DNA of 64,000 bases from an uncultured Ectothiorhodospiraceae bacterium (GTDB lineage Bacteria; Pseudomonadota; Gammaproteobacteria; GCA-002705445; GCA-002716945). The notes beneath the pieces are model-generated. The model was not told the origin of the DNA, did not search any database, and worked only from the letters and a program-made list of their open reading frames with translations. Positions within the stretch are counted from its first letter, which is position 1; each line of letters starts with the position of its first letter. The position numbers and the translations under genes were made by a program. Shown here in pieces: positions 23,260 to 39,265 of this stretch. Where the stretch lies: the NCBI GenBank assembly GCA_964342155.1, contig CAYFEQ010000005.1, forward strand, positions 24,889 through 88,888. Direction: 5' to 3'.

Positions 23260-23261
23260 TC

Positions 23262-24302
23262 ATGTATGGGGAAGGATTATTTTTATTGAACTCAAGTGTT
23301 ATGATTAATATTTTAATAACTTTTTTTACAACTCTAACAGTAGCTTTTATATTAACAAAAAAACCTTTGGCTTTATCAATGCCAACTGATAGAGGTCTTC
23401 ATGAAAAAAATACACCTACATCTAGTGGAATTGCTTTGGCTATTGGATATATTTTTGGCATTCTATTAGATTTTAGCTCATGGTTTGACTACATGGCAAT
23501 ATTATTAATAATAATTGCTTTTGTTGGTTTTTTAGATGATAAGTATAGAATCTCAAAAGAATTCAGATTTCTTATACAAATTATTTTGGCATGCTTATTT
23601 GTATATTCTTTTGGTGACACTAGTTTAATTAGTTTCATCGGATTTATATACATCTTTATGATTGTATATTCTATTAATGCATATAATTTTATGGATGGAA
23701 TAGATTCATTAATATTATTTCAATCAATTTTTGTTTTATCATCATTATTATTATTAGCCCCTAATTCTATAGTAATTCAATATCTTCACATCGATCTAAT
23801 CTTAGCTGCATTAATTGCATTATTATTTTTTGGAAAATCACCTTCAAAATTATTTCTTGGTAACTCAGGAAGCTATTTTCTAGGTCTTTATTTATCAATG
23901 ATTATAATTACAGTTTTATATTATTGGGATATTAGTTTCTTAACTTATAGCATTCTATTTACAATTATATTAATTGATACAATTTATGTCATATTGAAAA
24001 GATTTTTTGTAAAACTATCTAACTTATATAGAGAAAATAAAAATTTACACATTTCGATCTACATTAGTCTCAAACATATAACTGAGCCACACTGTACTCA
24101 TAATTATCAGAAATTAACAAAAAAAATAAATAGTCATGCAAAGGTTGTTTTCATCTTAATGTTATATAATATTCTTTGGTGCTTGCCTTTAGCAATTGCT
24201 TCTGCAAAGTTTGATGACTATGCTTTATTATGCTTGGCATTAAGCTTTATTCCTTATATTATATGGTGCTATATTAATAATGCGGGGGTTGAATCAAATT
24301 GA
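23262..24302 (+). CDS. Undecaprenyl-phosphate sugar-1-phosphate transferase (WbpL/WecA, MraY-like GT4 family). This is the initiating enzyme.
   Basis: It is an integral membrane protein with the VGFLDDKYRIS and NAYNFMDGIDSL motifs (D-D-x-x-D and N-x-x-N-x-x-D-G-x-D-G-L). Confidence 0.75.
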   Translation: MYGEGLFLLNSSVMINILITFFTTLTVAFILTKKPLALSMPTDRGLHEKNTPTSSGIALAIGYIFGILLDFSSWFDYMAILLIIIAFVGFLDDKYRISKEFRFLIQIILACLFVYSFGDTSLISFIGFIYIFMIVYSINAYNFMDGIDSLILFQSIFVLSSLLLLAPNSIVIQYLHIDLILAALIALLFFGKSPSKLFLGNSGSYFLGLYLSMIIITVLYYWDISFLTYSILFTIILIDTIYVILKRFFVKLSNLYRENKNLHISIYISLKHITEPHCTHNYQKLTKKINSHAKVVFILMLYNILWCLPLAIASAKFDDYALLCLALSFIPYIIWCYINNAGVESN

Positions 24303-26224
24303 GAGATTTTTTACTAAATCTACCTAGAAATAAGAAAAGGGCCTTAGTTATTGTAGTAGATGCAATAAGCCTGATTGCTGCTGTTTGGATAGCATTTATA
24401 TTGAGAACAGACCAATTTTTTTGGCCTTCAAATGGATACCCATTAACTGCAATATCAGCAACACAACTATACATTGTTTTCCTGTTAGCTCCATTGATTA
24501 CAATATCAGTACTTTATTCGATCAAATTATATAGATCGATTACACGTTATATTACAAGTGAAACATATCTTAAGATGTCTAAAGCTTGTATATTTGCTTC
24601 TGTCGTTTGGACATTCTTGATTTATCAACTTGAATATCCAGTACCAAGATCCGTATACATAATCTATGCCATTTTATCTCTATCATTTTTAATTTTTACT
24701 AGATACACAGCATCAGCATTTCTTTCAACAACTAATTATTTTGGACGTAAAAATGTTTTAATTTATGGAACAGGATCTTCTTCAAGAAGAATGGCAAATC
24801 TATTAAGTAATGATCTTAAAATTAAACCAGTTGGCTTTATTAGTGATGATAATGATTTAGAAAAAACAAGTATTGCAGAATTGTCTGTTTATTCAAAAAA
24901 TGATATTGAAAGAATTATAAATAAAAAAAATATAGATGAGATCTTAATTGTTCTTTCAAAAAAATCAAGTTCACAATTAAGAAAAATAGTTAATAATCTA
25001 AAACCATATCGGACACAACTAAGAAAAGTGCCAGACATAAATCAAATAGCTCGAGGCCAATTAAAAATTAGCGACTTTAAAAAAATTGATATTGAGGACT
25101 TATTAGGTAGGGATGCCGTTAAGCCTGACCCATATCTTTTAAAATCATGTATTGAAAACAAAACTGTGTTAATTACAGGTTGTGGTGGATCAATTGGCTC
25201 AGAATTATCGCGACAAATAATTACTCTAAAACCAAAGAAAATTATTCTTCTAGAACAGTCAGAGTTTTTTCTATACCAAATTGATCAAGAACTTAGTGAT
25301 TTTAAAATAAAGGAGAATTCTGATATTGCTATTAGCTCATATCTAGGATCTGTCGCTGACGACAAATTTATCTCACATATATTTAGTAAAGAAAAAATTG
25401 ATACAGTATATCATGCTGCTGCTCATAAGCATGTACCATTAGTTGAATTTAACCCTTTGCCTGCAATTGAAACAAATATTTTTGGTACAAATATACTTGC
25501 AACTCATTCATATAAAAATAATGTTGATAATTTTGTTTTAATTTCTAGTGATAAAGCAGTAAGACCTACAAATATTATGGGAGCTACAAAAAGGTTTGCT
25601 GAATTAATTTTACAAGCACTACAAGAAAAGGTTAATGAATTACCTGCAAATCAATGTAGAACAAAATTCTGTATGGTTAGATTTGGCAATGTCTTAGATA
25701 CATCTGGATCCGTTGTTCCATTGTTTAGAAAACAAATTGCAAATGGCGGCCCTATCACTGTTACTGATCCACGAGTCATTCGATATTTTATGACTATACA
25801 AGAAGCTACTGAACTAGTTATACAAACAGGAACTTTAAGTAAAGGAGGGGATGTTTTTCTCTTAGAAATGGGTGAACCTGTCAGCGTTCTCGATTTAGCA
25901 AAGGAAATGATTAGACTCAGTGGAAATGAAATAAAAGATGAACAAAACCCATCTGGCAATATTGAGATTATGTTTACAGGATTGAGGGCTGGAGAGAAAC
26001 TTTACGAAGAATTACTAATTGGAGATAATGTTAACCCGACAATACATAAACATATTATGTCGGCAAATGAAGAAAAATTATCTGAACATAAGGTTAATGA
26101 GTTTATTGCCCAATTCAAACAAATTACTCCATCAACACCTATAGAAGATATACAAAAAACATTATATGATGCCGTATCTGGATATAAACCCGATAATAAT
26201 AAAGTTGTCAAAATAAAGAATTAA
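24299..26224 (+). CDS. Membrane-anchored UDP-N-acetylglucosamine 4,6-dehydratase (WbpM/PglF/CapD family)
   Basis: It has N-terminal TM helices, the Rossmann motif VLITGCGGSIGSEL and the CapD-type RFGNVLDTSGSVVPLF motif. Length is 641 aa. Confidence 0.85.
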   Translation: MRDFLLNLPRNKKRALVIVVDAISLIAAVWIAFILRTDQFFWPSNGYPLTAISATQLYIVFLLAPLITISVLYSIKLYRSITRYITSETYLKMSKACIFASVVWTFLIYQLEYPVPRSVYIIYAILSLSFLIFTRYTASAFLSTTNYFGRKNVLIYGTGSSSRRMANLLSNDLKIKPVGFISDDNDLEKTSIAELSVYSKNDIERIINKKNIDEILIVLSKKSSSQLRKIVNNLKPYRTQLRKVPDINQIARGQLKISDFKKIDIEDLLGRDAVKPDPYLLKSCIENKTVLITGCGGSIGSELSRQIITLKPKKIILLEQSEFFLYQIDQELSDFKIKENSDIAISSYLGSVADDKFISHIFSKEKIDTVYHAAAHKHVPLVEFNPLPAIETNIFGTNILATHSYKNNVDNFVLISSDKAVRPTNIMGATKRFAELILQALQEKVNELPANQCRTKFCMVRFGNVLDTSGSVVPLFRKQIANGGPITVTDPRVIRYFMTIQEATELVIQTGTLSKGGDVFLLEMGEPVSVLDLAKEMIRLSGNEIKDEQNPSGNIEIMFTGLRAGEKLYEELLIGDNVNPTIHKHIMSANEEKLSEHKVNEFIAQFKQITPSTPIEDIQKTLYDAVSGYKPDNNKVVKIKN

Positions 26225-26226
26225 TT

Positions 26227-27096
26227 ATGCATTCAAACACTATCTCAGTTGGATATGGAAGCGTAAATACAGTTAAGATTGGTAGCACCGAACCACTTGT
26301 ATTTATTGGAGGGCCATGCGCAATAGAAAGTAAAGAGCATGCATTTAAAGTTGCAGATATGATAAATAAAATTTGTAACAAGCATTCTATTCCCTGGATC
26401 TACAAATCTTGCTTTGATAAAGATTGTCGCTCATCTCCAGATAGTTATCATGGACTTGGTTTGGATGGCCTTAAAATCTTAAGTGAAATCAGAGATGAAT
26501 TTGGATGCCCAGTGGTTAGTGATTTTTCTAATCCTGCATGGGCTGAACCTGTTGGAGAAGTTTGTGACATGGTTCAAGTTCCTGCATATTTATGCAGACA
26601 AACTACTATCCTAAAAGGTGCAGCTGAAACTGGAAGACCAATACACCTAAAGAAAGGTCAATTCATGAGTCCATGGAATATGAAAAACTCTGTTAGAAAA
26701 ATTGAATCATATGGGAATAAGCAAATCTTATTGACTGATAGAGGAACTTTCTTTGGCTATAATATGCTCATAAATGATTATAGAAATTTTCCTATTATGA
26801 TGGAAACCAGTTATCCAGTTTGTTTTGATGCAACTCATTCTATTCAATTACCAACATCGATGGGAAATATTTCTGGAGGCCAAAGAGAATTTATCCCAAC
26901 TCTTACTAGAGCTGCTGCAGGAGCAGGGATACATGCATTATTTATGGAAGTTCATGATGATCCTGATAATGCAATGTCAGATGCTAATACACAATTAAAT
27001 ATTAAGTACTTAGAAAACGTACTTGTGCAGGCTAAAACAGTTCATATGACTAGAATAGAACTTTTTAATAAGCTTGGAGAAGATGATGTTAAATAA
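26227..27096 (+). CDS. kdsA: 3-deoxy-8-phosphooctulonate synthase
   Basis: FIGGPCAIES, VQVPAYLCRQTTIL (KdsA has iQlPAFLaRQTDL), FDATHSIQLP, GGQREF and GIHALFMEVHDDPDNA are colinear with KdsA. Confidence 0.8.
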   Translation: MHSNTISVGYGSVNTVKIGSTEPLVFIGGPCAIESKEHAFKVADMINKICNKHSIPWIYKSCFDKDCRSSPDSYHGLGLDGLKILSEIRDEFGCPVVSDFSNPAWAEPVGEVCDMVQVPAYLCRQTTILKGAAETGRPIHLKKGQFMSPWNMKNSVRKIESYGNKQILLTDRGTFFGYNMLINDYRNFPIMMETSYPVCFDATHSIQLPTSMGNISGGQREFIPTLTRAAAGAGIHALFMEVHDDPDNAMSDANTQLNIKYLENVLVQAKTVHMTRIELFNKLGEDDVK

Positions 27097-27496
27097 TATT
27101 AAAGAAATAGAAATTTCTGAAGCTATGTTTGAGACAGATAATTTTCCAGTTATTTCTTCTACAACATTGCTAAAAGAAGCTATAGAAGAAATGACAAAAT
27201 ATAATATTGGCATTGCATGCATTGTAGATAAAAAAGATTTATTAGGGGTCTTTACTGATGGAGATTTACGCAGATTGCTATTGTCACATCAAAAACCATT
27301 CCCAGCATTATTTAATGATGATGTATCAACATATATGACAAAAAACCCTAGTGTAATACAAAAAAGTTCTTCTATATTTGAAGCAATGAATTTAATTAAT
27401 GAGAAGAAAATTTGGGATTTACCAGTAGTTGAAAATAAGAAGTTAATTGGTTTAGTAAATTTACACACTCTCGTTAAATACATAAATAAAAAATGA
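27074..27496 (+). CDS. Stand-alone CBS-domain pair protein, like the KpsF/GutQ C-terminus but without a SIS domain
   Basis: It has two CBS repeats (IGIACIVDKKDLLGVFTDGDLRRLL and WDLPVVENKKLIGLVNLHTL). Length is 140 aa. It overlaps the kdsA 3' end by 23 nt. Confidence 0.6.
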   Translation: MEKMMLNNIKEIEISEAMFETDNFPVISSTTLLKEAIEEMTKYNIGIACIVDKKDLLGVFTDGDLRRLLLSHQKPFPALFNDDVSTYMTKNPSVIQKSSSIFEAMNLINEKKIWDLPVVENKKLIGLVNLHTLVKYINKK

Positions 27497-28254
27497 AAAC
27501 TTTAGCTGTTATTCCAGCTAGATGGACATCAAAAAGATTTCCTGGAAAGCCAATTGCAAATATTATGGGTTTACCTATGATTGTTCATGTTTATAACCGA
27601 ACAAAAGGTTCAAAAGAAATTACAGATGTCATAATTGCCACGGATGATAAAAGGATAGCTAATGTCTGTAAGCAACATTCATTGAACTACATAATGACAT
27701 CAAAGAAATGCAAGACTGGGACAGACAGAGTAGCAGAAGTTGCTAAAAAAATTCAAGCAACATTTTATATCAATATCCAAGGTGATAGCCCGTTAGTTAA
27801 TAAACAAGATATAGACAAAATGGTGAAAGCACATAAAATTTTTATTAAAAAAGGAATTTCAGTAACCAATTCTTATGTACTTGAAAATAAAACAAATTTT
27901 AAACGTTCATTAAAAAATTTATCTCCACATGCTTATTTAATTCAGAAAAAAGATGGAACCATTTTATCTATATCACGTCATACAATCCCATATATATTTA
28001 CAGGCGAAGGTAAGAATGTAGTTTCTTATAAATATAAGTCTCATGTTGGGATGTATGTATTTACAAGAAATAGTCTTCTAAAATACACTAAGTTAAAACA
28101 AGGAGAAATAGAAAAATCAGAAGGAATTGAAATGTTAAGATTTATAGAGAATGGTATAAAAATAGGTTGTGTCCAGATAAAAGGAGGAGATCAAACAGTT
28201 GATCATAAAGAGGATATAATCAAAGTAGAGAAAATGATGAGAAAAAAGGTATGA
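27493..28254 (+). CDS. kdsB: 3-deoxy-manno-octulosonate cytidylyltransferase (CMP-Kdo synthetase)
   Basis: The N-terminal AVIPARWTSKRFPGKPIANIMGLPMIVHV (KdsB has iPARy.StRLPGKPL..I.GkPMi) is followed by TGTDRVAEV and NIQGDSPL. Confidence 0.8.
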   Translation: MKTLAVIPARWTSKRFPGKPIANIMGLPMIVHVYNRTKGSKEITDVIIATDDKRIANVCKQHSLNYIMTSKKCKTGTDRVAEVAKKIQATFYINIQGDSPLVNKQDIDKMVKAHKIFIKKGISVTNSYVLENKTNFKRSLKNLSPHAYLIQKKDGTILSISRHTIPYIFTGEGKNVVSYKYKSHVGMYVFTRNSLLKYTKLKQGEIEKSEGIEMLRFIENGIKIGCVQIKGGDQTVDHKEDIIKVEKMMRKKV

Positions 28255-29027
28255 ACTATATTGAAAAAGAATTTGGTGTTAAGAATCGTGTTGTTGTGAT
28301 AACAGGGGCAGGAGGGCACATCTGTGGTTCTGTTGCTGAGGCTTTTGCTAAAGCAGGCGCAAAATTAGCTTTATTAGATATAAGAAAAAAGAATATTGAT
28401 AAAAAAAGTTTTTTGAAAAAAATGTCTCCAAGAAACTATCTTGCTTTGGAATGTGATGTGACAAATAAGAGCCAGATAATTGAATGTTCTAAAAAAGTAA
28501 TAAAAAAATTTGGAACTATTGATGTTTTAATAAATGGAAGTGGAATAAATTCACCATCTGAATTTTTTAATATTTCAGAAAAAGAATGGAATGATATTCT
28601 TTCTGTTAATTTGAAAGGCACCATGTTTTGTTGTCAAATCTTTGGAAAATATATGTGTAAAAAGAAAAAAGGATCGATTATCAATATTTCATCGGTTTCA
28701 TCTGACCCACCTTTATCTAAAGCTTTTACATATTCAGTATCAAAAGCTGCAATTAAAAACTTAACACAAAATTTAGCAAGAGAATGGGCTCAATCTAATG
28801 TGAGAGTAAATTCAATTAAACCAGGGTTTTTTCCAACAAAATGGAACTTACAAAATTTTATAACTCAAAAAAGAAAAAATGCTATTCTTAATCACACGCC
28901 AATGAAAAGATTTGGAAAACCAACAGAATTAGTAGGGGGTTTTATTTGGCTTGCATCAGATGCTTCTGTCTTTGTAACTGGGGCAGAGATTACTATCGAT
29001 GGTGGTTTTTCTTCCTGTACAATATAA
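28251..29027 (+). CDS. Short-chain dehydrogenase/reductase (classical SDR)
   Basis: It has the TGAGGHICGSVA glycine motif, NGSG (NNAG-like) and the catalytic YSVSK (YxxxK). Confidence 0.75.
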   Translation: MNYIEKEFGVKNRVVVITGAGGHICGSVAEAFAKAGAKLALLDIRKKNIDKKSFLKKMSPRNYLALECDVTNKSQIIECSKKVIKKFGTIDVLINGSGINSPSEFFNISEKEWNDILSVNLKGTMFCCQIFGKYMCKKKKGSIINISSVSSDPPLSKAFTYSVSKAAIKNLTQNLAREWAQSNVRVNSIKPGFFPTKWNLQNFITQKRKNAILNHTPMKRFGKPTELVGGFIWLASDASVFVTGAEITIDGGFSSCTI

Positions 29028-29030
29028 TAT

Positions 29031-29792
29031 ATGAGCGAATCAAAAAATAAAACTGTAGTTATTACTGGCGGAACACAAGGTATAGGTCTTGAAATTGTAA
29101 AAAAATTTCTAGTTAACGATAATAATGTTTTTGTTGGCAGTAGATCTGAGTCCAAAGAATTTAAAGAGCAATGTATTGGCGCTACATTCGTCAAGACAGA
29201 CGTTAAAAAAATTGCTGATATTGAAAATTTAATGGATATAGCTGTAAAACCTACTGGGAATATTGATGTACTTATAAATAATGCTGGTATATCAATTTGG
29301 AAAAAAATAGACAATGTAAATGAAAGTTTCTTTTACGATATAATAGATACAAATCTAAAAGGCGTAGTGTTTTGTTGTAAATATGCTACTAAACAAATGA
29401 AAAATAAAGGTATTATTATTAATATTGCAAGTTTAGCTGGAAAGCGTGGAAGCAAAAATAATTCAATTTATGTAGCTTCAAAATTTGCTGTTGTAGGAGT
29501 TACGCAAGCATTAGCTAAAGAACTAGGGGTTTATGGAATTAGAGTGAACAGTATTTGTCCCGTATATATTGATACCCCTTCATTGTTAGCCAATCTCTCG
29601 GGCGATCACCCTGAAGTTGGTGATTTAGAGCCGTCAGAATTTTTAAAACAATGGGGTAAAGCTAATAGTGCGCTACAAAGACTACCATCAGGAAGTGAAT
29701 GCGCGGATGCATGTTATTACCTTGCATCAGATTCATCTTCAGCAATTACAGGACAAAATATTAATGTTGACTGTGGAGTATTGCCTCAATAA
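29031..29792 (+). CDS. Short-chain dehydrogenase/reductase (classical SDR)
   Basis: It has TGGTQGIGLEI, NNAG and YVASK motifs. Confidence 0.75.
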   Translation: MSESKNKTVVITGGTQGIGLEIVKKFLVNDNNVFVGSRSESKEFKEQCIGATFVKTDVKKIADIENLMDIAVKPTGNIDVLINNAGISIWKKIDNVNESFFYDIIDTNLKGVVFCCKYATKQMKNKGIIINIASLAGKRGSKNNSIYVASKFAVVGVTQALAKELGVYGIRVNSICPVYIDTPSLLANLSGDHPEVGDLEPSEFLKQWGKANSALQRLPSGSECADACYYLASDSSSAITGQNINVDCGVLPQ

Positions 29793-29796
29793 ATCT

Positions 29797-30576
29797 ATGA
29801 ATATTAATGATATAAAAAATAATAATAAAACTATATTTAATGCTTGGTTGCATATTCCGTCGCCCTTTGGCGCTGAAATTATTGCTAAACAAGGTTGGGA
29901 TAGCATTACGATTGATATGCAGCATGGTTTGATCACACATAGTGATGCTTTAGCCATTTTACATGCGATTTCATCTACTAATACCATCCCTTTAATCAGA
30001 GTTCCGTCTAATAATTCAACTGATATTACAAAATGTTTGGATATGGGAGCAAAAGGCATCATCACACCAATGATAGATAATGCATCGCAAGCCCAAGAGT
30101 TTGTAGATGCATGCGTTTTCCCTCCAATAGGGAAAAGAAGTTTTGGGCCAATACGCGCTTATTACACAGAGGATAAAGACTATATCTTAAATTCACACAA
30201 TAAAGTATTGAAAATTATACAAATTGAATCTAAATCAGCATATGAAAACTTGGATTCTATTTTATCAGTTGAGCACCTAGATGGGGTTTATATTGGGCCA
30301 AATGATCTAGCGCTAGGATTAGGCACAAATAGACAAATTGATACAAAAAACCCTCAAAGAGCAAATGAGTTTCAGATAACAGATGAAACGATGGATGCTA
30401 TTGAACATATCCTTAAAAAAACCAAAGAATATGGCTTAATAGCGGGCATTCACAGTACTTCTGAACAGATTACGGCCCTTATGATAGAGAAGGGGTTTCA
30501 GATGGTTACAGCAACGTCTGATGAACGACTTTTAGCCTCTGGTTCACAAAACATGCTAAAAAACCTTAAAAAATAA
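29797..30576 (+). CDS. HpcH/HpaI-family class II pyruvate aldolase (2-keto-3-deoxy-acid aldolase type)
   Basis: WLHIPSPFGAEIIAKQGWDSITIDMQHG ... IRVPSNNSTDITKCLDMGAKGIITPMIDNASQAQEFVDACVFPPIGKRSFGP matches the HpcH/HpaI pattern (EH.p ... RVp ... krvLD.GA.gvmvP.V.taeeA...V.a.rYPP.G.RG). The start was trimmed to the first ATG after the upstream stop. The track ORF begins at 29668, inside the preceding gene. Confidence 0.7.
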   Translation: MNINDIKNNNKTIFNAWLHIPSPFGAEIIAKQGWDSITIDMQHGLITHSDALAILHAISSTNTIPLIRVPSNNSTDITKCLDMGAKGIITPMIDNASQAQEFVDACVFPPIGKRSFGPIRAYYTEDKDYILNSHNKVLKIIQIESKSAYENLDSILSVEHLDGVYIGPNDLALGLGTNRQIDTKNPQRANEFQITDETMDAIEHILKKTKEYGLIAGIHSTSEQITALMIEKGFQMVTATSDERLLASGSQNMLKNLKK

Positions 30577-30600
30577 ATATCTAAACAATCTTGTTTTAAA

Positions 30601-31350
30601 ATGAAAAATATTCTCAAGAATTTTATACTAAGCTTACTTCACTCTGTCAGGTGGGTTATTAAGAAACTTTACATTCACATTATACCTACTGATATCGTAA
30701 GAACAAAAAAACATGGAATGAATTGTTATGACTTGTATCACAAGGAAGAGCTAAAAAAATGTTTTGAGCATTTTAAAAAACATTATCTTACGTCAGTCCA
30801 TCTCACGGGAGATGATCTTCTAAATTATGCAATTCATCATGCTATTAAAAATAATGATGGTCTTTATTTAGAATTTGGTGTTTGGAAAGGTAGAACTTTA
30901 AATATATTTTCTAAACATTTGAAAAATAATAAAATATTTGGTTTTGATACATTTGAAGGAATTAATGAAGATTGGGCTGGAACAGATAAAGCAAAAGGTT
31001 TTTATGGTGCAAACAAAAAAATGCCAAAAGTTAATGATAATTGCATGCTTATAAAGGGATTGATACAGGATACTTTACCTAAATTTTTAACAGAAAACTC
31101 AGATACAAAAATTGCTTTTGCGCATATGGATGTAAATACATATAAATCATCAAAATTTATCTTGAAACTGATAAAGTCGCATTTACATGAAAATGCCATT
31201 ATACTTCTGAGAGGTTGCCATAATTATCCAGGTTGGTCAGTTGGTGAATATAAAGCATTTCAAGAAACTTTTAAACCAAAAGAATATAAGTTCTTGGCAT
31301 TCTCTAAGGATGGCAGTCCAGCTGTAATCCAATTTCTAAAGCATTCTTAA
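30601..31350 (+). CDS. TylF/MycF-like (Methyltransf_24) SAM-dependent O-methyltransferase
   Basis: LEFGVWKGRTLNIF resembles the TylF family vEcGVwrGgS motif, followed by an FGFDTFEG metal/SAM region. Length is 249 aa. Confidence 0.6.
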   Translation: MKNILKNFILSLLHSVRWVIKKLYIHIIPTDIVRTKKHGMNCYDLYHKEELKKCFEHFKKHYLTSVHLTGDDLLNYAIHHAIKNNDGLYLEFGVWKGRTLNIFSKHLKNNKIFGFDTFEGINEDWAGTDKAKGFYGANKKMPKVNDNCMLIKGLIQDTLPKFLTENSDTKIAFAHMDVNTYKSSKFILKLIKSHLHENAIILLRGCHNYPGWSVGEYKAFQETFKPKEYKFLAFSKDGSPAVIQFLKHS

Positions 31351-31411
31351 TTATTTGGTTTTCCATTAGCTTTAATATAGAATCACAATTTACTCAATCA
31401 AATAAAGATAT

Positions 31412-32602
31412 ATGAAATATAAAATTCCTTTTGCTAAGATTGAAACTAGCCTTAAAGAATTTGAATATGTTGAGAATGTTCTCAAGTCTGGGTGGTTGAC
31501 AACAGGTAGTGTAGCAAAAGAATTTGAGGATAACTTCTGCAAATTTACTGGAGCTAAACACGCTTTAGCAGTTAGTTCCTGTACAGCTGCTTTACATCTT
31601 GCATTGAATGCTATATCAATAAAAAAAGGTGACAAGGTTATCGTGCCTTCATTAACTTTTACATCTTCAGCTGAAGTTATTACTTATTTTCAAGCTGATC
31701 CTATATTTGTCGATATTGATTATGATACATGCTTAATAACTCCTGAAATCATACAGAAGGCAATTGATAAGCATGGTGATATTAAAGCAGTGATTACAGT
31801 TCATTTTGCAGGTCATCCAGCAATGATGACGAGTGATAATCAAAAGGGGATACTTGATATTTGTAAAGAAAATAACATAACCGTAATAGAAGATGCTGCT
31901 CACGCATTCCCATCAAAACTAAATAACACATATGTCGGTAACTTTGGAAAGATTACATGTTTTAGTTTTTATGCAAATAAAACTATCACAACAGGAGAAG
32001 GAGGGATGATTGTCTGCGATGATGAAAAATTAATTGAAAAGATTAAAATTATGAGATTGCACGGAATAGATAAAGATCCATGGAAAAGGCAAAACTCAGT
32101 TGGGCCAAAATGGAAATATGATGTGGTTATACCAGGTTTCAAATATAATATGCCTGATATTAATGCAGCTATTGGCCTTGCTCAATTAGAAAAAGCAGAA
32201 AAAATGAGATTAGAGAGACAGAGATGTGCTGAATATTATGCTAAACATTTATCAGAAATTGAATGCATTGAAATACCAAAGTTAAAAGTTAGTTTTTCTG
32301 ATCATTCATGGCATTTATATTTAATAGTTGTTAATGATAAATCAAATGTCTCAAGAGATGAATTGATGGACCTATTAGAGACAGATGGCATATCTACATC
32401 TTTGCACTATATACCACTTCATCAAATGACTTACTATAAAGATACATATAATTTAGATAATCAGGATTTTCCAAATACAGAAAGATACTTCAAGGGCTGT
32501 TTGTCATTACCAATATATCCATCACTAAAAAATGAAGAACTTGAATATATAGTTAAATCTATAAAAAACATTGTGTTACAAAATAATACAAACAAACCTT
32601 AA
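31412..32602 (+). CDS. DegT/DnrJ/EryC1/StrS-family PLP-dependent sugar aminotransferase
   Basis: It is full length at 396 aa, with SGWLTTGS, SSCTAALHLAL, KGDKVIVPSLTF, EDAAHAF and the PLP-lysine region FSFYANKTITTGEGG. Confidence 0.85.
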   Translation: MKYKIPFAKIETSLKEFEYVENVLKSGWLTTGSVAKEFEDNFCKFTGAKHALAVSSCTAALHLALNAISIKKGDKVIVPSLTFTSSAEVITYFQADPIFVDIDYDTCLITPEIIQKAIDKHGDIKAVITVHFAGHPAMMTSDNQKGILDICKENNITVIEDAAHAFPSKLNNTYVGNFGKITCFSFYANKTITTGEGGMIVCDDEKLIEKIKIMRLHGIDKDPWKRQNSVGPKWKYDVVIPGFKYNMPDINAAIGLAQLEKAEKMRLERQRCAEYYAKHLSEIECIEIPKLKVSFSDHSWHLYLIVVNDKSNVSRDELMDLLETDGISTSLHYIPLHQMTYYKDTYNLDNQDFPNTERYFKGCLSLPIYPSLKNEELEYIVKSIKNIVLQNNTNKP

Positions 32603-32623
32603 ATTAATTAATTACTAATTTAA

Positions 32624-33313
32624 ATGGATATTAATAATTCATTTTACGAAGCATCTAATCTAATTATTTCACTAGATTCAAGTTTAATTGAAATAATATC
32701 TTTATCATTATTTGTTTCATTATCAGCAGTTATTATTGCATGTATAATTTCATTTCCAATCGGAAGCTTTCTTGCTATGAAAAAATTTTATGGAAGAGAG
32801 ATTATTATTATAATAGTAAATGCTTTTATGGGTTTACCGCCTGTTGTAGTAGGTTTATTTTTATATCTTATATTCTCATCTGCAGGCATATTTGGTTATT
32901 ATCAATTGTTATACTCCCCAACAATTATGATTATTGCTCAGATTATTATAGTAACGCCAATTATTATTGGATTAACAAAACAAATTATTGAGGATTTATT
33001 TTTTGAATATAGCGATCTACTACTATCTCTTAAGGCAACGATGATACAAAAAATTCAAACCTTAATCTGGGATGCGAGATTTTCTTTACTTACAGTGGCT
33101 TTAGCTGGACTCGGTAGAGCATTAGCAGAAGTAGGGGCGGTAATTATTGTAGGTGGTAACATTGCTCATGTCTCAAGAGTAATGACCACTACAATTGCTA
33201 TGGAGACTTCAAAAGGTGATTTATCTCTTGCGTTAGGATTAGGAATCATTTTAATTTCTATATCCATTTTAATCAATGGAACATTATATTTACTTAGAAA
33301 GTTTCAGTACTGA
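32624..33313 (+). CDS. tupB: ABC transporter permease, TupB-like (tungstate/oxyanion family)
   Basis: ALAEVGAVIIVGGNIAHVSRVMTTTIAMETSKGDLSLALGLGIIL closely parallels the TupB core (EVGA..mVGGNI.g.TRv.TtAIalEtskGd...A). It has 5 to 6 TM helices. Confidence 0.65.
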   Translation: MDINNSFYEASNLIISLDSSLIEIISLSLFVSLSAVIIACIISFPIGSFLAMKKFYGREIIIIIVNAFMGLPPVVVGLFLYLIFSSAGIFGYYQLLYSPTIMIIAQIIIVTPIIIGLTKQIIEDLFFEYSDLLLSLKATMIQKIQTLIWDARFSLLTVALAGLGRALAEVGAVIIVGGNIAHVSRVMTTTIAMETSKGDLSLALGLGIILISISILINGTLYLLRKFQY

Positions 33314-34017
33314 TGCCTAAATACAATATACTTCCTATAAAACTCGATAACGTATGTCTGTCTTTTGGAACACATAAGTTTTTTAATAATTTGTCATTAG
33401 AAATTATAAATGAAGGGATTTCAATTATAATGGGTCCAAATGGTTCTGGTAAAACACTGGTTTTAAAACTGATGTCTGGGCTTCTTAATCCTGACAATGG
33501 AATCATAACTCATGCAAATAAACCTGCATCAACGAATCTGCCATGTGGATTTGTTTTCCAAAAACCAATTCTTTTAAGAAGAACTGTTAAAGAAAACTTA
33601 AGTCATTCTTTATCTATAATAGGAATACAAAGTAAATTTCATGATAATTATATAGAGGAAATTTTACCTAATGGTAAATGGAAGCTATTTTTAAATCGTA
33701 ATGCAAAAAAGTTATCCGTTGGAGAACAACAAGTCTTATCTTTATTAAGGGCATTAATCATAAAGCCTAAAGTTTTGTTTTTAGATGAACCAAGTAGCAG
33801 TTTGGATCCTACAGGTACTTTAATTATTGAAAACCTTATTAATCAAGTAACAAAACAAAAAGTAAAAATCATTATGACTACACATGATATTATTCAAGCT
33901 AAAAGATTGGCTAATGAAATCTTATATTTTGATAACGGTAGATTATTAGAACAAGGGTCTTCAAATGAGATTCTTAATAATCCAAAAAGTCTGACTTCAA
34001 CTTATTATTTTCAATGA
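33313..34017 (+). CDS. tupC: ABC transporter ATP-binding protein (TupC-like)
   Basis: It has Walker A GPNGSGKT, the signature LSVGEQQ and Walker B VLFLDEPSSSLD. It overlaps tupB by 1 nt. Confidence 0.7.
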   Translation: MPKYNILPIKLDNVCLSFGTHKFFNNLSLEIINEGISIIMGPNGSGKTLVLKLMSGLLNPDNGIITHANKPASTNLPCGFVFQKPILLRRTVKENLSHSLSIIGIQSKFHDNYIEEILPNGKWKLFLNRNAKKLSVGEQQVLSLLRALIIKPKVLFLDEPSSSLDPTGTLIIENLINQVTKQKVKIIMTTHDIIQAKRLANEILYFDNGRLLEQGSSNEILNNPKSLTSTYYFQ

Positions 34018-34835
34018 CTGTTATTAAAACAATATTTAATTATGTGATATTATTAGTCTTAGTTTTTAATCATAAAACAACTTTTGCGTCTGATAATTTT
34101 TTACTTCTACAAACTACCACTTCATTAAGAGATTCTGGCTTCCTTGAATATATAATTCCTAAATTTAATGAATTTAATCAAATAGAGATAAGATATGTAG
34201 CTGCTGGAACCGGTAAGGCAATTACTAATGCCAAAAATTGCGATGCTGACTTACTAATAGTACATTCAAAAATAGATGAAATTGCATTTATTAAAAATAA
34301 TTTTGGTAAAACTCGACGAGTACTTATGTACAATAAATTTGTTTTAGTTACTCCTAAGTCTAATCCAGCAAATATTTCTTCAAATGATGATATTGTTTCT
34401 GCATTTAAAAAAATTGCTAATACTAAATCTAAATTCTTAACACGATCAGATAATAGCGGAACCTACAAAGCTGAAACAAAAATTTGGAATATAGCAGAAA
34501 TAAATCCTATCCTTAATAGTGGGGATTGGTACCTTGAATCAGGCCTAGGAATGGGGGCAACTCTCAATATTGCAATAAACCTCGATGCATATGTGTTATC
34601 AGATAATGCCACTTGGTTGCAATTTAAGAATAAATATAATCATCATATAATTCCGATTCAAGATACTCATTTACTCAATATCTATAGTATTGTTACGATT
34701 AATCAAAAAAAATGTCCTAACACTAAGCGGAAGCTTGTGAATATCTTTAGTTCCTGGCTTCTATCTGATCAAGGTAAAGATGCTATCAATTCATTTACAG
34801 TTGATAATCAGCAGCTTTTCTATACATTTCAATAA
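34014..34835 (+). CDS. tupA: Periplasmic substrate-binding protein, TupA-like (PBP_like_2)
   Basis: It has an N-terminal hydrophobic signal. LLLQTTTSLRDSGFLEYIIPKFNEFNQIEIRYVAAGTGKAI...DADLLIVHS matches the TupA pattern (attTStqdSGLld.L.p.Fe...g..v.vvavGtGqal....GdaDvllvHa). Confidence 0.6.
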   Translation: MTVIKTIFNYVILLVLVFNHKTTFASDNFLLLQTTTSLRDSGFLEYIIPKFNEFNQIEIRYVAAGTGKAITNAKNCDADLLIVHSKIDEIAFIKNNFGKTRRVLMYNKFVLVTPKSNPANISSNDDIVSAFKKIANTKSKFLTRSDNSGTYKAETKIWNIAEINPILNSGDWYLESGLGMGATLNIAINLDAYVLSDNATWLQFKNKYNHHIIPIQDTHLLNIYSIVTINQKKCPNTKRKLVNIFSSWLLSDQGKDAINSFTVDNQQLFYTFQ

Positions 34836-34912
34836 TTTGATATTATAATTAGACATAATATATATTATGCGAATATAGATGTATATTTCATCACTACTAC
34901 CTATTCTAATAA

Positions 34913-35269
34913 ATGATTAAAGTACTATTTAATAATAAATGCCCAATATGCTCTAGAGAAATTAATCATTATAAAAGATTAGATCAAAGTAATATTAATT
35001 GGATAGATATCAATAATATAGAAGATTCATCTAAAATTTTTGGTAAGACAAATAGAGAGCTCTTACGAAGACTACATGTAATATATGATGCGCAAGTTTA
35101 TCAGGGTATAGATGCATTTATTATTATTTGGAAAAATATCCCTAAATATAGATTCTTATCAAAAATCATATCATCCCCTATCATTTATCAGATTTCATAT
35201 ATATTGTATGAAATGCTCGCTTTAATTCTATTTTATATAAATTTCAATCAGTTAAAGGACAATTCTTAA
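34913..35269 (+). CDS. DCC1-like thiol-disulfide oxidoreductase family protein (DUF393)
   Basis: The N-terminal VLFNNKCPICSREINHYKRLD matches the DUF393 C-x-x-C signature (lyDGdCplCsrev.f). Length is 118 aa. Confidence 0.6.
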   Translation: MIKVLFNNKCPICSREINHYKRLDQSNINWIDINNIEDSSKIFGKTNRELLRRLHVIYDAQVYQGIDAFIIIWKNIPKYRFLSKIISSPIIYQISYILYEMLALILFYINFNQLKDNS

Positions 35270-35270
35270 T

Positions 35271-36137: not shown

Positions 36138-36139
36138 AA

Positions 36140-38814: not shown

Positions 38815-39265
38815 ATTTAATGAGAAGCTGTTTTCTGGCTAAAATATAATCATCCTCACTTATAAGTCCTCTTAAATATTGATCTTTAAGAGTTTCAAGT
38901 TGGACTAATGTCTTAGAAACCATGACCTCATATTGAGCATCTTTTGGTTTTGCGCACCCTTTTTTTTGATATAAACGTAACAAGTGTTCCTTTCTCTCGG
39001 AGGCATTATATTCAGCATGGATTGATGTTCCATAAGTCACAAAATATGCAGGAAAAAAGAATAATCCCGAAAGTATATTCTCATCTGTAGCTCCTTTATT
39101 TTGATGTGCAATATCTTCATTTAAATTAGCTGATTCATAAGCAAGCAAGAGCTCCTTACAGGTCATAACTTCATCACCAGCTTGCCTTATATCCATGGCC
39201 TTAGGTGTAGCACATGATGCAGAAAATATTAAGATTAATCCATATATTACTGATTTATTATACAT
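38807..39265 (-). CDS. Putative lipoprotein with a C-terminal SHOCT-like motif
   Basis: It has a signal peptide plus lipobox (LIFSASC). The C-terminal LRGLISEDDYILARKQLL resembles a SHOCT short C-terminal domain. Confidence 0.4.
   Translation of the reverse strand: MYNKSVIYGLILIFSASCATPKAMDIRQAGDEVMTCKELLLAYESANLNEDIAHQNKGATDENILSGLFFFPAYFVTYGTSIHAEYNASERKEHLLRLYQKKGCAKPKDAQYEVMVSKTLVQLETLKDQYLRGLISEDDYILARKQLLIKFE

What the first reader, a model, noticed from the sequence alone, without database searches (positions are those of the whole stretch)
28251..32602. SDR-SDR-HpcH aldolase-TylF methyltransferase-DegT aminotransferase module next to kdsA/kdsB: a possible pyruvate-aldolase route to a modified ulosonic acid
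An HpcH/HpaI class-II pyruvate aldolase (29797-30576) is unusual in a polysaccharide cluster. These enzymes condense pyruvate with aldehydes to give 2-keto-3-deoxy acids. That product class is chemically the same as the PEP-dependent KdsA/NeuB products.

It is flanked upstream by kdsA, a CBS protein, CMP-activating kdsB and two SDRs. Downstream lie a sugar O-methyltransferase and a PLP sugar aminotransferase.

The arrangement suggests synthesis of an aminated and/or O-methylated 3-deoxy-2-ulosonic acid (a Kdo/Kdo8N-like or higher-carbon sugar). The aldolase would either build an alternative backbone from pyruvate or edit the chain.
Basis: inference. Interest (0 to 1): 0.6.

Follow-up and report, generated by a model that had tools for sequence, protein, structure and literature searches.

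The report
Conserved Kdo-like sugar cassette with aldolase
The genes are real and belong to a widespread, apparently undescribed gene cassette that most likely makes a CMP-activated, remodelled Kdo-like acidic sugar for a cell-surface polysaccharide, using an unusual Kdo-8-phosphate synthase variant, two dehydrogenases and a pyruvate aldolase.

Summary

The core, 26227-30576, is KdsA - CBS protein - KdsB - SDR1 - SDR2 - HpcH aldolase. It is not a chance neighbourhood. HpcH, SDR1, SDR2 and a KdsB-type cytidylyltransferase recur together in dozens of unrelated metagenomic contigs (26-68% G+C), inside polysaccharide loci. Most of these contigs also carry the same KdsA and CBS protein.

The KdsA is a distinct, highly conserved subfamily. 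All 144 sequences examined carry KDCRS where ordinary Kdo8P synthases carry the arabinose-5-phosphate-binding motif KANRS.

The aldolase keeps all its catalytic residues. However, it comes from a different HpcH clade than the aldolases of other cassettes. Its 69%-identical ortholog in a syntenic relative stands alone, without the rest of the cassette.

The methyltransferase has the fold of TylF/CalS11 sugar O-methyltransferases. Other cassettes carry unrelated O-methyl- or carbamoyl-transferases.

The DegT enzyme is ArnB-like and is not part of the cassette. It probably serves the adjacent WbpM-like dehydratase, so an aminated Kdo is not supported.

The exact product and the role of the aldolase remain unresolved. 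No description of the cassette was found.

The parts
24299..26224 (+). WbpM/PglF-like membrane-anchored UDP-GlcNAc 4,6-dehydratase. It is context, not cassette, and is the likely supplier of the 4-keto sugar for the DegT enzyme.
   Evidence: Polysacc_synt_2, 376 bits; PseB model, 171 bits, below cutoff. It follows a WecA/WbpL-like transferase at 23262-24302. The pairing with DegT is inferred. A DegT-WbpM pair is adjacent in L036.
26227..27096 (+). KdsA*: a PEP-dependent 3-deoxy-ulosonate-phosphate synthase of a distinct subfamily (KDCRS in place of KANRS).
   Evidence: NF003543, 335.5 bits (cutoff 242); best solved structures are KDO8P synthases, E 4e-74. The motifs KSC[YF]DKDCRS, S[FY]HG and SDFS are invariant in 23 cassette copies and in 144 database proteins. 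It is 68-80% identical to cassette copies in contigs of 26-68% G+C.
27074..27496 (+). Stand-alone CBS-pair protein that always accompanies KdsA*. It is a probable regulatory partner (inferred).
   Evidence: CBS, 75 bits. It resembles the C-terminal CBS part of KpsF/KdsD (TIGR00393, 72 bits, profile positions 160-268). It overlaps or directly follows KdsA* in all loci that hold KdsA*.
27493..28254 (+). KdsB*: a CMP-ulosonate synthetase (cytidylyltransferase).
   Evidence: CTP_transf_3, 160 bits; NF003952, 239 bits (cutoff 193); the equivalog model TIGR00466 scores 136, below its cutoff of 155. The nearest relatives outside this population are 54% and 47% identical, and both lie in cassettes.
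28251..29027 (+). SDR1: a sugar-acid-type short-chain dehydrogenase with an NAD-type signature. Proposed oxidising step.
   Evidence: Best NCBIfam match is D-mannonate oxidoreductase, 250.9 bits, below the cutoff of 281. It is 49-61% identical to at least 540 metagenomic relatives; the best 80 all lie in cassettes. Asp43 at the end of strand beta2 is invariant. The closest plasmid-borne relative sits next to uxaC.
29031..29792 (+). SDR2: a FabG/glucose-1-dehydrogenase-like short-chain dehydrogenase with an NADP-type signature. Proposed reducing step.
   Evidence: adh_short, 169 bits. Its one-to-one orthologs (42-64% identical) directly follow SDR1 in the cassettes. Arg38 after strand beta2 is conserved.
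29797..30576 (+). HpcH/HpaI-family class II (metal-dependent) pyruvate aldolase, sitting in the cassette's aldolase slot.
   Evidence: PF03328, 96.7 bits; best solved structure is 6r62, the SwHKA hydroxyketoacid aldolase, E 9e-39. H43, R68, E144 and D170 are invariant in 64 aligned family members. It belongs to clade C with L001, the SAR11-like aldolases and SwHKA, and is only 24-31% identical to the aldolases of other cassettes.
30601..31350 (+). TylF-superfamily sugar O-methyltransferase, a tailoring enzyme specific to this lineage.
   Evidence: Methyltransf_24, 42.4 bits; CalS11, E 1e-10. The AlphaFold model (pLDDT 93) matches CalS11, NovP, MycF, SpnH and MeT1 best. No homolog was found in other cassette loci.
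31412..32602 (+). ArnB-like DegT nucleotide-sugar 4-aminotransferase. It is probably a separate amino-sugar branch, not part of the cassette.
   Evidence: DegT, 408 bits; ArnB structures, E 1e-79, against PseC/PglE about 1e-40 and KdnA 3e-32. Only distant DegT genes (29-35% identical), several kilobases away, occur in 6 of the other loci.

Best explanation
Positions 26227-31350 carry one copy of a mobile, widely distributed biosynthetic cassette. It makes a CMP-activated, remodelled 3-deoxy-2-ulosonic acid (Kdo-like) for the large surface-polysaccharide locus in which it sits.

**Proposed steps**
1. KdsA*, a metal-type Kdo8P-synthase homolog with an altered sugar-phosphate pocket, condenses PEP with a sugar phosphate. 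This may be arabinose-5-phosphate or a close analogue. The small CBS protein, which always accompanies KdsA*, probably regulates this committed step.
2. A phosphatase frees the acid. None is encoded in this copy; other copies carry a HAD-type enzyme.
3. The invariant trio remodels the free acid: SDR1 (NAD type) oxidises, the class II pyruvate aldolase acts on a C-C bond, and SDR2 (NADP type) reduces. My preferred reading is inversion of stereocentres. The SDR pair would do this by oxidation and re-reduction. The aldolase would invert C4 by retro-aldol cleavage and re-addition.
4. KdsB* activates the product with CTP.
5. The TylF-type enzyme O-methylates a hydroxyl, either on the sugar or after it is transferred.

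**Separate branch.** The ArnB-like DegT enzyme belongs elsewhere. It probably aminates the 4-keto-6-deoxy-HexNAc made by the WbpM-like dehydratase.

**Shown and inferred.** Shown: the family assignments, the conserved co-occurrence, the KdsA* signature, the intact aldolase catalytic residues and the methyltransferase fold. Inferred: every substrate, the order of steps, cofactor use and the role of the aldolase.
For: **The cassette is conserved**
- The nearest KdsB relatives (54% and 47% identical) lie in CBS-KdsA-(HAD)-KdsB-SDR-SDR-HpcH or CBS-KdsA-KdsB-HpcH-SDR-SDR arrays, inside loci with a Wzx flippase and glycosyltransferases.
- An SDR1-anchored metagenome scan found at least 540 relatives. 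The best 80 loci show HpcH, SDR1, SDR2 and KdsB together, and KdsA* + CBS in most.
- Look-ups anchored on KdsA* gave the same arrays in an Enterobacterales MAG and a Syntrophales MAG.
- The contigs span 26-68% G+C.

**KdsA\* is not ordinary**
- KDCRS, S[FY]HG and SDFS are invariant, where a canonical enzyme (PDB 6mdy) has KANRS, SYRGPG and TDVHE.
- Asn57 and Arg58 of that motif are ligand contacts in Neisseria KDO8PS (PMC6650799).
- In one locus KdsA*-CBS-KdsB occur without the trio. KdsA* therefore appears to make an acid that can be activated directly, and the trio looks like a remodelling module.

**The remodelling enzymes**
- The aldolase catalytic residues H, R, E and D are invariant.
- SDR1 has the NAD-type Asp and SDR2 the NADP-type Arg. 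The rule linking these residues to cofactor preference comes from the established SDR literature.

**Tailoring enzymes recur next to the cassette**
- NanM-like O-methyltransferases (TIGR04371), FkbM-type and class I methyltransferases, and a carbamoyltransferase occur there.
- The window's methyltransferase has a sugar O-methyltransferase fold.

**Other points**
- Gene spacing is tight.
- The module's proteins are seen on about as many contigs as RecA of this population.
Against: - The window's aldolase is not orthologous to the aldolases of other cassettes (24-31% identity). Its closest relatives are SAR11 aldolases in inositol-like catabolic clusters.
- In the syntenic relative L001, a 69%-identical aldolase sits alone between a WbpL-like transferase and tupB, with none of the other cassette genes next to it.
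- No phosphatase and no identifiable CMP-ulosonate glycosyltransferase were found in the window.
- A cassette type without KdsA* (Type II) shows that the trio plus KdsB can work without a PEP-dependent synthase nearby. This fits a backbone-building aldolase at least as well as an editing one.
- KdsA* still scores above the curated KDO8PS cutoffs, so its substrate may simply be arabinose-5-phosphate.
- No biochemical data exist for any of these proteins.
Confidence: 0.6

Rival explanations
1. The aldolase builds or extends the carbon chain instead of editing it. There are two versions.
- It condenses pyruvate (or hydroxypyruvate) with an aldose or aldose phosphate to make the ulosonic acid, as it would have to in cassettes that lack KdsA*.
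- It adds pyruvate to an aldehyde that SDR1 generates on the KdsA* product, and SDR2 then reduces the new keto group. This would give a higher-carbon or dicarboxylic ulosonic acid.
For: - Type II cassettes have the order GFO, methyltransferase, GmhA-like SIS, TAL/FSA, HpcH, HAD, SDR1, SDR2, KdsB, 2-hydroxyacid dehydrogenase. They have no KdsA- or NeuB-type synthase within 10 kb, so HpcH and TAL/FSA are the only enzymes there that form C-C bonds.
- An NAD-type SDR1, an aldolase and an NADP-type SDR2 fit an oxidise / add / reduce sequence.
- The closest solved relative of the window's aldolase accepts hydroxypyruvate. That is the depositors' name for 6r62 together with my own knowledge of that enzyme.
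Against: - In this window, and in most cassettes, a PEP-dependent synthase is also present, which makes a second backbone-forming enzyme look redundant.
- To my knowledge no natural ulosonic acid of the predicted higher-carbon kind is known.
- KdsA*-CBS-KdsB can stand alone.
Confidence: 0.22
2. The aldolase is a resident gene of this chromosomal spot, next to tupBCA, with a catabolic or general pyruvate-aldolase role. It is adjacent to the cassette only because the cassette was inserted beside it.
For: - L001, whose core genes are 58-83% identical to those of the window, has the 69%-identical aldolase at the same place without the cassette.
- The window's aldolase groups with catabolic-context SAR11 aldolases and with SwHKA.
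- It is the most conserved gene of the module among close relatives: 95% identical in L006, against 71-90% for its neighbours.
- It has the highest GC3 of the module.
Against: - The cassettes closest to the window's (L008: KdsB 54%, SDR1 59%, SDR2 64% identical) have an HpcH aldolase in exactly this position after SDR2.
- All 17 well-flanked cassettes have an HpcH aldolase. Landing next to an unrelated member of the same family by chance is therefore unlikely.
- Cassettes already use at least two other HpcH clades, so replacement by a non-orthologous aldolase is evidently tolerated.
- The gap to SDR2 is only 4 bases.
Confidence: 0.15
3. These are the genome's only kdsA and kdsB. They supply ordinary LPS-core Kdo, and the SDRs, aldolase and methyltransferase serve unrelated sugars of the O-antigen.
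For: - KdsA scores above the curated KDO8PS cutoffs, and its PEP- and metal-binding motifs are retained.
- No second copy lies within the 64 kb window or in the 10 kb upstream of it.
Against: - The KANRS motif is replaced in every member of this clade.
- The clade is 72-80% identical across unrelated MAGs and travels with the cassette.
- The syntenic relative L001, which encodes the lipid A deacylase PagL, lacks the pair at this locus. No KdsB ortholog 60-80% identical was found.
- KdsB falls below its equivalog cutoff.
Confidence: 0.05

Closest known systems
Kdo pathway (KdsD-KdsA-KdsC-KdsB) and the capsule paralogs KpsF/KpsU
   Same: - A PEP-dependent DAHP_synth_1-fold synthase and a CTP_transf_3 cytidylyltransferase, both scoring as KdsA/KdsB family members.
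- A CBS pair like the C-terminus of KpsF/KdsD.
- Some cassette copies carry a HAD phosphatase.
   Different: - KANRS is replaced by KDCRS, with two further signature changes.
- There is no SIS isomerase domain.
- Two SDRs and a class II aldolase are obligatory companions.
- The cassette is embedded in variable polysaccharide loci and spread across contigs of 26-68% G+C.
Kdo8N pathway of Shewanella (KdnB oxidase + KdnA aminotransferase acting on free Kdo)
   Same: The logic of remodelling free Kdo between the phosphatase step and CMP activation, starting with an oxidation. This comparison rests on my own knowledge of that pathway.
   Different: - There is no Fe-dependent alcohol dehydrogenase; the oxidoreductases here are SDRs.
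- The window's aminotransferase is ArnB-like (E 1e-79), far from KdnA (E 3e-32), and is not conserved with the cassette.
HpcH/HpaI class II pyruvate aldolases (HpaI, GarL, YfaU/RhmA, SwHKA)
   Same: The fold, the Pfam family and the invariant catalytic residues H, R, E and D.
   Different: - Scores are far below every equivalog cutoff: HpaI 142.8 (cutoff 368.8), RhmA 114.5 (cutoff 441), GarL-type NF007849 107.1 (cutoff 393) and TIGR03239 102.6 (cutoff 406.75).
- The genomic context is nucleotide-sugar biosynthesis, not aromatic or sugar-acid catabolism.
Nonulosonic acid (legionaminic / pseudaminic / sialic acid) cassettes: NeuB-type synthase + NeuA-type cytidylyltransferase + tailoring enzymes
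   Same: - A modular, horizontally mobile cassette in glycan loci that ends in a CMP-activated 2-ulosonic acid.
- A NeuB-type cassette lies about 7-10 kb upstream of the window's first base in the same locus.
   Different: - The synthase is KdsA-type, not NeuB-type.
- There is no aminotransferase or acetyltransferase core.
- It includes a pyruvate aldolase.
L-ribulose-5-phosphate 4-epimerase (AraD), a class II aldolase-fold enzyme that epimerises by retro-aldol cleavage and re-addition
   Same: It is only a mechanistic precedent for the proposed C4 inversion by a metal-dependent aldolase. This comparison rests on my own knowledge.
   Different: The fold family is different, and no evidence here shows epimerase activity.

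Membership tests
KDO8P synthase (KdsA, EC 2.5.1.55) | DAHP_synth_1 fold and a score above the curated equivalog cutoffs | tested here: met
   PF00793, 219 bits; NF003543, 335.5 bits (cutoff 242); TIGR01362, 327.9 bits (cutoff 314).
KDO8P synthase (KdsA, EC 2.5.1.55) | PEP- and metal-site motifs (GPC.IE Cys, KKGQF, DATHS, SGGQR) | tested here: met
   All are present in the alignment to PDB 6mdy and are conserved across the clade.
KDO8P synthase (KdsA, EC 2.5.1.55) | The KANRS motif that binds arabinose-5-phosphate | tested here: not met
   It reads KDCRS in the window, in 23 cassette copies and in all 144 database proteins examined. The canonical KANRS is seen in 6mdy.
KDO8P synthase (KdsA, EC 2.5.1.55) | Catalysis with arabinose-5-phosphate + PEP | not testable with these tools
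   Requires an enzyme assay.
CMP-Kdo synthetase (KdsB) | CTP_transf_3 fold and the NCBIfam KdsB models | tested here: inconclusive
   The subfamily model NF003952 scores 239 (cutoff 193), which is met. The equivalog model TIGR00466 scores 136.1 (cutoff 155.2), which is not met.
HpcH/HpaI class II pyruvate aldolase | Pfam family membership and the catalytic His/Arg plus the metal-binding Glu/Asp | tested here: met
   PF03328, 96.7 bits (cutoff 25). H43, R68, E144 and D170 are invariant in 64 sequences.
HpaI / GarL / RhmA catabolic aldolase equivalogs | A score above the equivalog cutoff and a catabolic gene context | tested here: not met
   HpaI (TIGR02311) 142.8 against 368.8; RhmA (NF007521) 114.5 against 441; GarL-type NF007849 107.1 against 393 and TIGR03239 102.6 against 406.75. 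The context is a glycan locus.
TylF-superfamily sugar O-methyltransferase | The fold shared with CalS11, NovP, MycF and SpnH | tested here: met
   The model has pLDDT 93. The top Foldseek hits are CalS11 (E 2.6e-12), NovP, MycF, SpnH and MeT1.
TylF-superfamily sugar O-methyltransferase | Pfam TylF gathering score and the metal-binding acidic triad | tested here: inconclusive
   TylF scores 19.6 against a cutoff of 23. Invariant Asp116 and Asp177 and the nearly invariant Asp179 and Asp204 exist in the family alignment, but they were not mapped onto the metal site.
DegT/ArnB-type nucleotide-sugar aminotransferase | DegT fold and the PLP-lysine motif | tested here: met
   PF01041, 408 bits. The sequence SFYANK, read, is at the expected place. 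ArnB structures match at E 1e-79. The specific equivalog cutoffs (PseC, ArnB) are not reached.
Kdo8N pathway (KdnA/KdnB) | A KdnB-type metal-dependent alcohol dehydrogenase and a KdnA-type aminotransferase | tested here: not met
   No Fe-dependent alcohol dehydrogenase is in the window. KdnA (5k8b) matches at only E 3e-32, over residues 36-269.
The unnamed conserved cassette (KdsA*-CBS / HpcH-SDR1-SDR2 / KdsB) | KdsA* with the KDCRS motif and an adjacent CBS protein | tested here: met
The unnamed conserved cassette (KdsA*-CBS / HpcH-SDR1-SDR2 / KdsB) | One-to-one orthologs of SDR1 and SDR2, side by side | tested here: met
   SDR1 is 49-61% and SDR2 42-64% identical to their cassette counterparts. 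The two paralogs are only 25-33% identical to each other.
The unnamed conserved cassette (KdsA*-CBS / HpcH-SDR1-SDR2 / KdsB) | An aldolase orthologous to the cassette aldolases (clades A or B) | tested here: not met
   An HpcH aldolase occupies the slot, but it belongs to clade C and is 24-31% identical to clades A and B.

The most novel reading that the evidence does not exclude
The invariant trio (NAD-type SDR, class II pyruvate aldolase, NADP-type SDR) is a PEP-independent, aldolase-based way of building or extending CMP-activated ulosonic acids. In cassettes without KdsA* the aldolase would make the whole 2-keto-3-deoxy head from pyruvate. In cassettes with KdsA*, including this window, it would add a second three-carbon unit, or re-form C3-C4, on the product of a synthase with a re-tooled sugar pocket. 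The result would be an acidic sugar not yet catalogued: a stereoisomer, a dicarboxylic acid or a higher-carbon ulosonic acid. It would be common on the surfaces of uncultured marine, freshwater and sediment bacteria.
Probability: 0.25. Interest if true: 0.85.

Novelty: new variant of a known kind. Interest (0 to 1): 0.68.

Why it matters
- Ulosonic acids (Kdo, sialic, legionaminic and pseudaminic acids) are major determinants of bacterial surface recognition, phage adsorption and immune evasion. All known routes build them with PEP-dependent synthases.
- This cassette occurs in hundreds of environmental contigs but is annotated only as 'KDO 8-P synthase', 'SDR' and 'aldolase/citrate lyase'.
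- It combines a synthase subfamily whose substrate-binding motif is systematically changed with a pyruvate aldolase and a redox pair.
- Working out its product would probably add a new sugar, or a new enzymatic route, to glycobiology.
- It would also correct a widespread annotation: these KdsA/KdsB copies should not be read as LPS-core genes.
- Finally, it would give a marker for a surface trait in abundant uncultured marine bacteria.

Tried and rejected
- **Literature.** Eight full-text searches found no description of the cassette. They combined HpcH with O-antigen, capsule, cytidylyltransferase or Kdo, and also covered KANRS, ulosonic acid with aldolase, and heptulosaric acid biosynthesis. 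One further search failed on syntax.
- **Plasmid and phage collections.** No cassette copy was found. The plasmid search gave only generic SDRs, and one hexuronate-context relative.
- **Promoter and terminator scan of 22000-35500.** Counts equal those of shuffled sequence, so the scan says nothing about operon limits.
- **Kdo8N-like amination.** Rejected, because DegT is ArnB-like and is not conserved with the cassette.
- **A shared origin for the window's methyltransferase and the NanM-like cassette methyltransferases.** No similarity was found.
- **The two unknown families that precede KdsA\* in many cassettes (about 261 and 277 aa).** No Pfam, NCBIfam or PDB match, and they are absent from the window.
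- **Homologs in the window of the cassette-associated HAD, 2-hydroxyacid dehydrogenase, TAL/FSA, SIS, GFO, NanM-like and TIGR04326-like proteins.** None were found.
- **Finding a second kdsA/kdsB in the same genome.** This was not possible.
- **A specific product (for example 3-deoxy-heptulosaric acid or an 11-carbon diacid).** This was considered, but nothing computed here discriminates between the candidates.

Full report
**1. What is there**

The window is AT-rich (25-36% G+C). It comes from an uncultured marine gammaproteobacterium. Near-identical loci are in the MAGs 'Gammaproteobacteria bacterium NAT478' and 'Pseudomonadota bacterium XB_MAG282'. The window's RecA, FabF and DnaK are on Tara and ENA contigs of up to 390 kb.

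Positions 1-32602 are one co-directional surface-polysaccharide locus. It continues at least 10 kb upstream of the window, where there is a NeuB-type nonulosonic-acid gene set. Beyond 38.8 kb the window holds core genes: holB, tmk, fabF/G/D, dapB, dnaJ/K, grpE, ispG, alaS, recA and others.

- KdsA, 26227-27096
- a CBS-pair protein, 27074-27496
- KdsB, 27493-28254
- two SDRs, 28251-29027 and 29031-29792
- an HpcH/HpaI aldolase, 29797-30576
- a methyltransferase, 30601-31350
- a DegT aminotransferase, 31412-32602

Spacing between neighbours runs from a 23-base overlap to a 61-base gap. A tungstate/molybdate-type ABC transporter starts at 32624, so the glycan locus ends there.

**2. The key result: a conserved cassette**

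The window's KdsB has close relatives only in its own population (100%, 88% and 76% identical). The next hits, 54% and 47% identical, lie in unrelated contigs. Both contigs carry the same gene set inside loci with a Wzx flippase and glycosyltransferases:
- CBS - KdsA - HAD - KdsB - SDR - SDR - HpcH (L008)
- CBS - KdsA - KdsB - HpcH - SDR - SDR (L009, L010)

Between the window and these loci, KdsA (54-59%), KdsB (47-54%), SDR1 (51-59%) and SDR2 (51-64%) are one-to-one orthologs.

A metagenome scan with an SDR1 alignment found at least 540 relatives. I analysed the best 80 loci by tblastn and by clustering all their ORFs. All 17 loci with about 4 kb or more on both sides of SDR1 have HpcH, SDR1, SDR2 and a KdsB-type cytidylyltransferase together. 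Eleven of the 17 also have KdsA followed by the CBS protein.

Look-ups anchored on KdsA instead of SDR1 gave the same arrays in an Enterobacterales MAG, a Syntrophales MAG and another contig. Cassette-bearing contigs range from 26% to 68% G+C. The unit has therefore spread across many lineages.

**3. Architecture**

Four arrangements were seen.
- **Type I:** [hexapeptide acyltransferase, HAD, two unknown families] KdsA* - CBS - [tailoring enzyme] - HpcH - SDR1 - SDR2 - KdsB - a protein of about 500 aa distantly like TIGR04326 - GT2.
- **Type II:** GFO-type oxidoreductase - methyltransferase - GmhA-like SIS - TAL/FSA - HpcH - HAD - SDR1 - SDR2 - KdsB - 2-hydroxyacid dehydrogenase. There is no KdsA- or NeuB-type synthase within 10 kb.
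- **Type III (this window, L008, L009):** KdsA* - CBS - KdsB - SDR1 - SDR2 - HpcH, or with HpcH before the SDRs.
- **Type IV:** KdsA* - CBS - KdsB - a 503-aa protein, without the aldolase and the SDRs. This was seen in one locus.

The parts therefore behave as three modules:
- KdsA* + CBS
- HpcH + SDR1 + SDR2, which are never separated
- KdsB, often with the roughly 500-aa protein

The slot between CBS and HpcH holds enzymes that decorate hydroxyl groups. These are a NanM-like O-methyltransferase (TIGR04371, 45.2 bits against a cutoff of 44), other methyltransferases, or a carbamoyltransferase.

**4. KdsA\* is a distinct subfamily**

It passes the curated KDO8PS cutoffs. It keeps the metal-binding Cys and the PEP-site motifs. 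Three loops differ from a canonical enzyme (PDB 6mdy):

| Canonical (6mdy) | KdsA* |
|---|---|
| KSSFDKANRSS | KSC[YF]DKDCRS[SA] |
| SYRGPG | S[FY]HG.G |
| TDVHE | SDFS[DEN] |

The KDCRS and S[FY]HG changes are invariant in 23 full-length cassette copies and in all 144 database proteins retrieved. The third change is conserved across the clade.

The Asn and Arg of KANRS are ligand contacts in Neisseria KDO8PS (PMC6650799). From my own knowledge of the KDO8PS literature, this motif is the one that distinguishes arabinose-5-phosphate binding from the KPRS/T motif of DAHP synthases.

The 120 best database hits are all 72-96% identical and come from diverse sources. That is far tighter than would be expected for housekeeping orthologs from lineages this far apart. 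The pocket for the sugar phosphate has thus been changed and then frozen. Whether the substrate differs from arabinose-5-phosphate cannot be decided here.

**5. Is this the housekeeping Kdo pair?**

Probably not.
- The syntenic relative L001 has core proteins 58-83% identical to the window's and encodes the lipid A deacylase PagL. It lacks kdsA and kdsB at this locus.
- No KdsB 60-80% identical was found, although such an ortholog was found for the aldolase.
- The clade travels with the cassette.

A direct search of the whole genome for a canonical second copy was not possible.

**6. The aldolase**

It has the invariant His43, Arg68, Glu144 and Asp170 of class II pyruvate aldolases. It scores far below the HpaI, GarL and RhmA equivalog cutoffs.

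A neighbour-joining tree shows three HpcH clades in cassettes:
- clade A, used by most loci, with the Type I and Type II aldolases in separate sub-clades
- clade B: L008, L009, L054 and L080
- clade C: the window and its population

Clade C also contains L001, SAR11-type aldolases (44-48% identical) that sit in inositol-like catabolic clusters, and the hydroxyketoacid aldolase SwHKA.

The window's aldolase is only 24-31% identical to clades A and B, while its cassette neighbours are 47-64% identical to their counterparts. In L001 the 69%-identical ortholog stands alone between a WbpL-like transferase and tupB.

Two readings fit.
- The cassette's aldolase was replaced by, or recruited from, a resident HpcH gene. 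This would be a non-orthologous displacement, which evidently happened more than once.
- The adjacency is accidental.

The slot after SDR2 is the same as in L008, every well-flanked cassette has an HpcH aldolase, and the gap is 4 bases. I give the second reading 0.15.

**7. The SDRs**

SDR1 is closest to the D-mannonate / gluconate-5 / KduD-type sugar-acid dehydrogenases. Its nearest relative in an annotated replicon lies beside uxaC and a LarA-like enzyme. It has an invariant Asp at the end of strand beta2.

SDR2 has a conserved Arg just after strand beta2.

By the established SDR cofactor rules this suggests an NAD+-linked oxidation and an NADPH-linked reduction. That pattern fits epimerisation through a keto intermediate, or an oxidise / C-C step / reduce sequence. 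This is inference.

**8. Methyltransferase and aminotransferase**

The methyltransferase model (pLDDT 93) matches CalS11 (TDP-rhamnose 3'-O-methyltransferase), NovP, MycF, SpnH and MeT1 best. A role as a sugar O-methyltransferase is therefore supported. It has no homolog in other cassette loci.

DegT matches ArnB structures at E 1e-79, PseC and PglE at about 1e-40, and KdnA at 3e-32. DegT genes occur in only 6 of the other loci, far from the cassette and only 29-35% identical. With the WbpM/PglF-like 4,6-dehydratase at 24299-26224 and the WbpL-like transferase at 23262-24302, it most simply makes a 4-amino-4,6-dideoxy-HexNAc. An aminated Kdo is not supported.

**9. Mechanism**

My best account is the following.
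1. KdsA*, regulated by the CBS partner, commits PEP and a sugar phosphate to a phosphorylated 3-deoxy-2-ulosonate.
2. A phosphatase frees the acid.
3. SDR1, the aldolase and SDR2 remodel it.
4. KdsB* activates it with CTP.
5. The methyltransferase decorates it.

The Type IV locus supports the view that KdsA* makes an acid that can be activated on its own and that the trio is a remodelling module.

What the aldolase does is open. One possibility is C4 inversion by retro-aldol cleavage and re-addition, analogous in principle to AraD. The other is chain building or extension with pyruvate. The Type II cassettes, which lack any PEP-dependent synthase nearby, make the second possibility a serious rival (0.22).

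**10. Novelty and verdict**

No paper in the searchable library mentions this combination. Public annotations read only 'KDO 8-P synthase', 'SDR family oxidoreductase' and 'aldolase/citrate lyase family protein'.

I classify it as a new variant of a known kind, namely cassettes for CMP-activated ulosonic acids. The new features are the KDCRS synthase subfamily and the obligatory class II aldolase with its SDR pair.

Interest is moderately high, because the system is widespread, hidden by generic annotation and directly testable.

Noticed in passing
window 2100-7878 and 11109-11636: This gene set resembles the Campylobacter O-methyl-phosphoramidate pathway, going by my own knowledge of Cj1415-Cj1418. 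It comprises a 937-aa protein with cytidylyltransferase, PPDK_N and PEP-utilizer domains (PRK05849 family, 671 bits), a Peptidase_C26 glutamine amidotransferase, an NTP_transf_3 protein, a 514-aa protein with no family match, and an APS-kinase-like kinase.
   Followed up: no
window 8834-11097 and 19073-20218: These are signs of sulfated or sulfonated sugars. There is a sulfotransferase (8834-10126), a UDP-sulfoquinovose-synthase-like protein (422 bits, below the cutoff of 575), and the APS-kinase-like gene at 11109-11636. Beside them is a protein that is only the barrel of pyruvate kinase (10123-11097, 266.8 bits, below the cutoff of 306.4).
   Followed up: no
L098 1-9987 (the 10 kb directly upstream of the window): The same locus continues upstream with a legionaminic-acid-like nonulosonic acid set: DegT, a UDP-GlcNAc 2-epimerase family protein, NeuB, a CBS-nucleotidyltransferase, a GFO oxidoreductase, a NeuA-type CTP_transf_3 protein, an SDR and a HisF/HisH-like pair. 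This organism therefore encodes two different CMP-ulosonic acid routes in one locus.
   Followed up: partly
L022, L043, L079, L038, L080 and others (Type II cassettes): In this variant KdsA* and CBS are absent. A GFO oxidoreductase, a GmhA-like SIS isomerase, a TAL/FSA-type aldolase, a HAD phosphatase and a PGDH-like 2-hydroxyacid dehydrogenase accompany HpcH-SDR1-SDR2-KdsB. No KdsA or NeuB homolog lies within 10 kb.
   Followed up: partly
L026, L042, L047, L053, L055, L060, L072, L089, L090 (just upstream of KdsA*): Two adjacent conserved protein families of about 261 and 277 aa have invariant His-rich motifs (for example SLEHTHPP and FVHGNLDA). They have no Pfam, NCBIfam or PDB match. They are absent from the window.
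   Followed up: partly
L095 9001-12703: KdsA*-CBS-KdsB-503 aa occurs without the aldolase and the SDR pair. Upstream of it are a DHQ-synthase-like gene, a 2-hydroxyacid dehydrogenase, a GFO oxidoreductase and a cytidylyltransferase fused to a cupin.
   Followed up: no
window 35271-38814 (minus strand); L099 2163-3962: Beyond the tup operon the window has a polysaccharide deacetylase, a NodU-like carbamoyltransferase and a mannose-1-phosphate guanylyltransferase-like gene. These are absent from the syntenic relative L001. In L099 and L100 a carbamoyltransferase sits inside the cassette, between CBS and HpcH.
   Followed up: no
L006 6642-9419: In the NAT478 relative, three extra ORFs (219, 262 and 404 aa) lie between the tupB and tupC homologs. 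In the window these two genes are contiguous.
   Followed up: no
L002-L004 (SAR11/Pelagibacter contigs): The aldolases closest to the window's clade (44-48% identical) lie next to an aldehyde dehydrogenase. An IolD-like TPP enzyme, GFO/IolG-like dehydrogenases, a ROK kinase and a sugar ABC transporter are nearby. This suggests an HpcH aldolase in an inositol-like catabolic route.
   Followed up: no
L001 6555-6938: The syntenic relative carries a PagL (lipid A deacylase) gene between the 152-aa ORF and the SNase gene. The window has no gene at the corresponding place, 39265-39363.
   Followed up: no
window 1-24000 versus 24000-32600: The upstream part of the glycan locus has 25-26% G+C, while the WbpM-to-DegT part has 30-32%, close to the core genes. 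The aldolase has the highest third-position G+C (0.28) of the module.
   Followed up: partly
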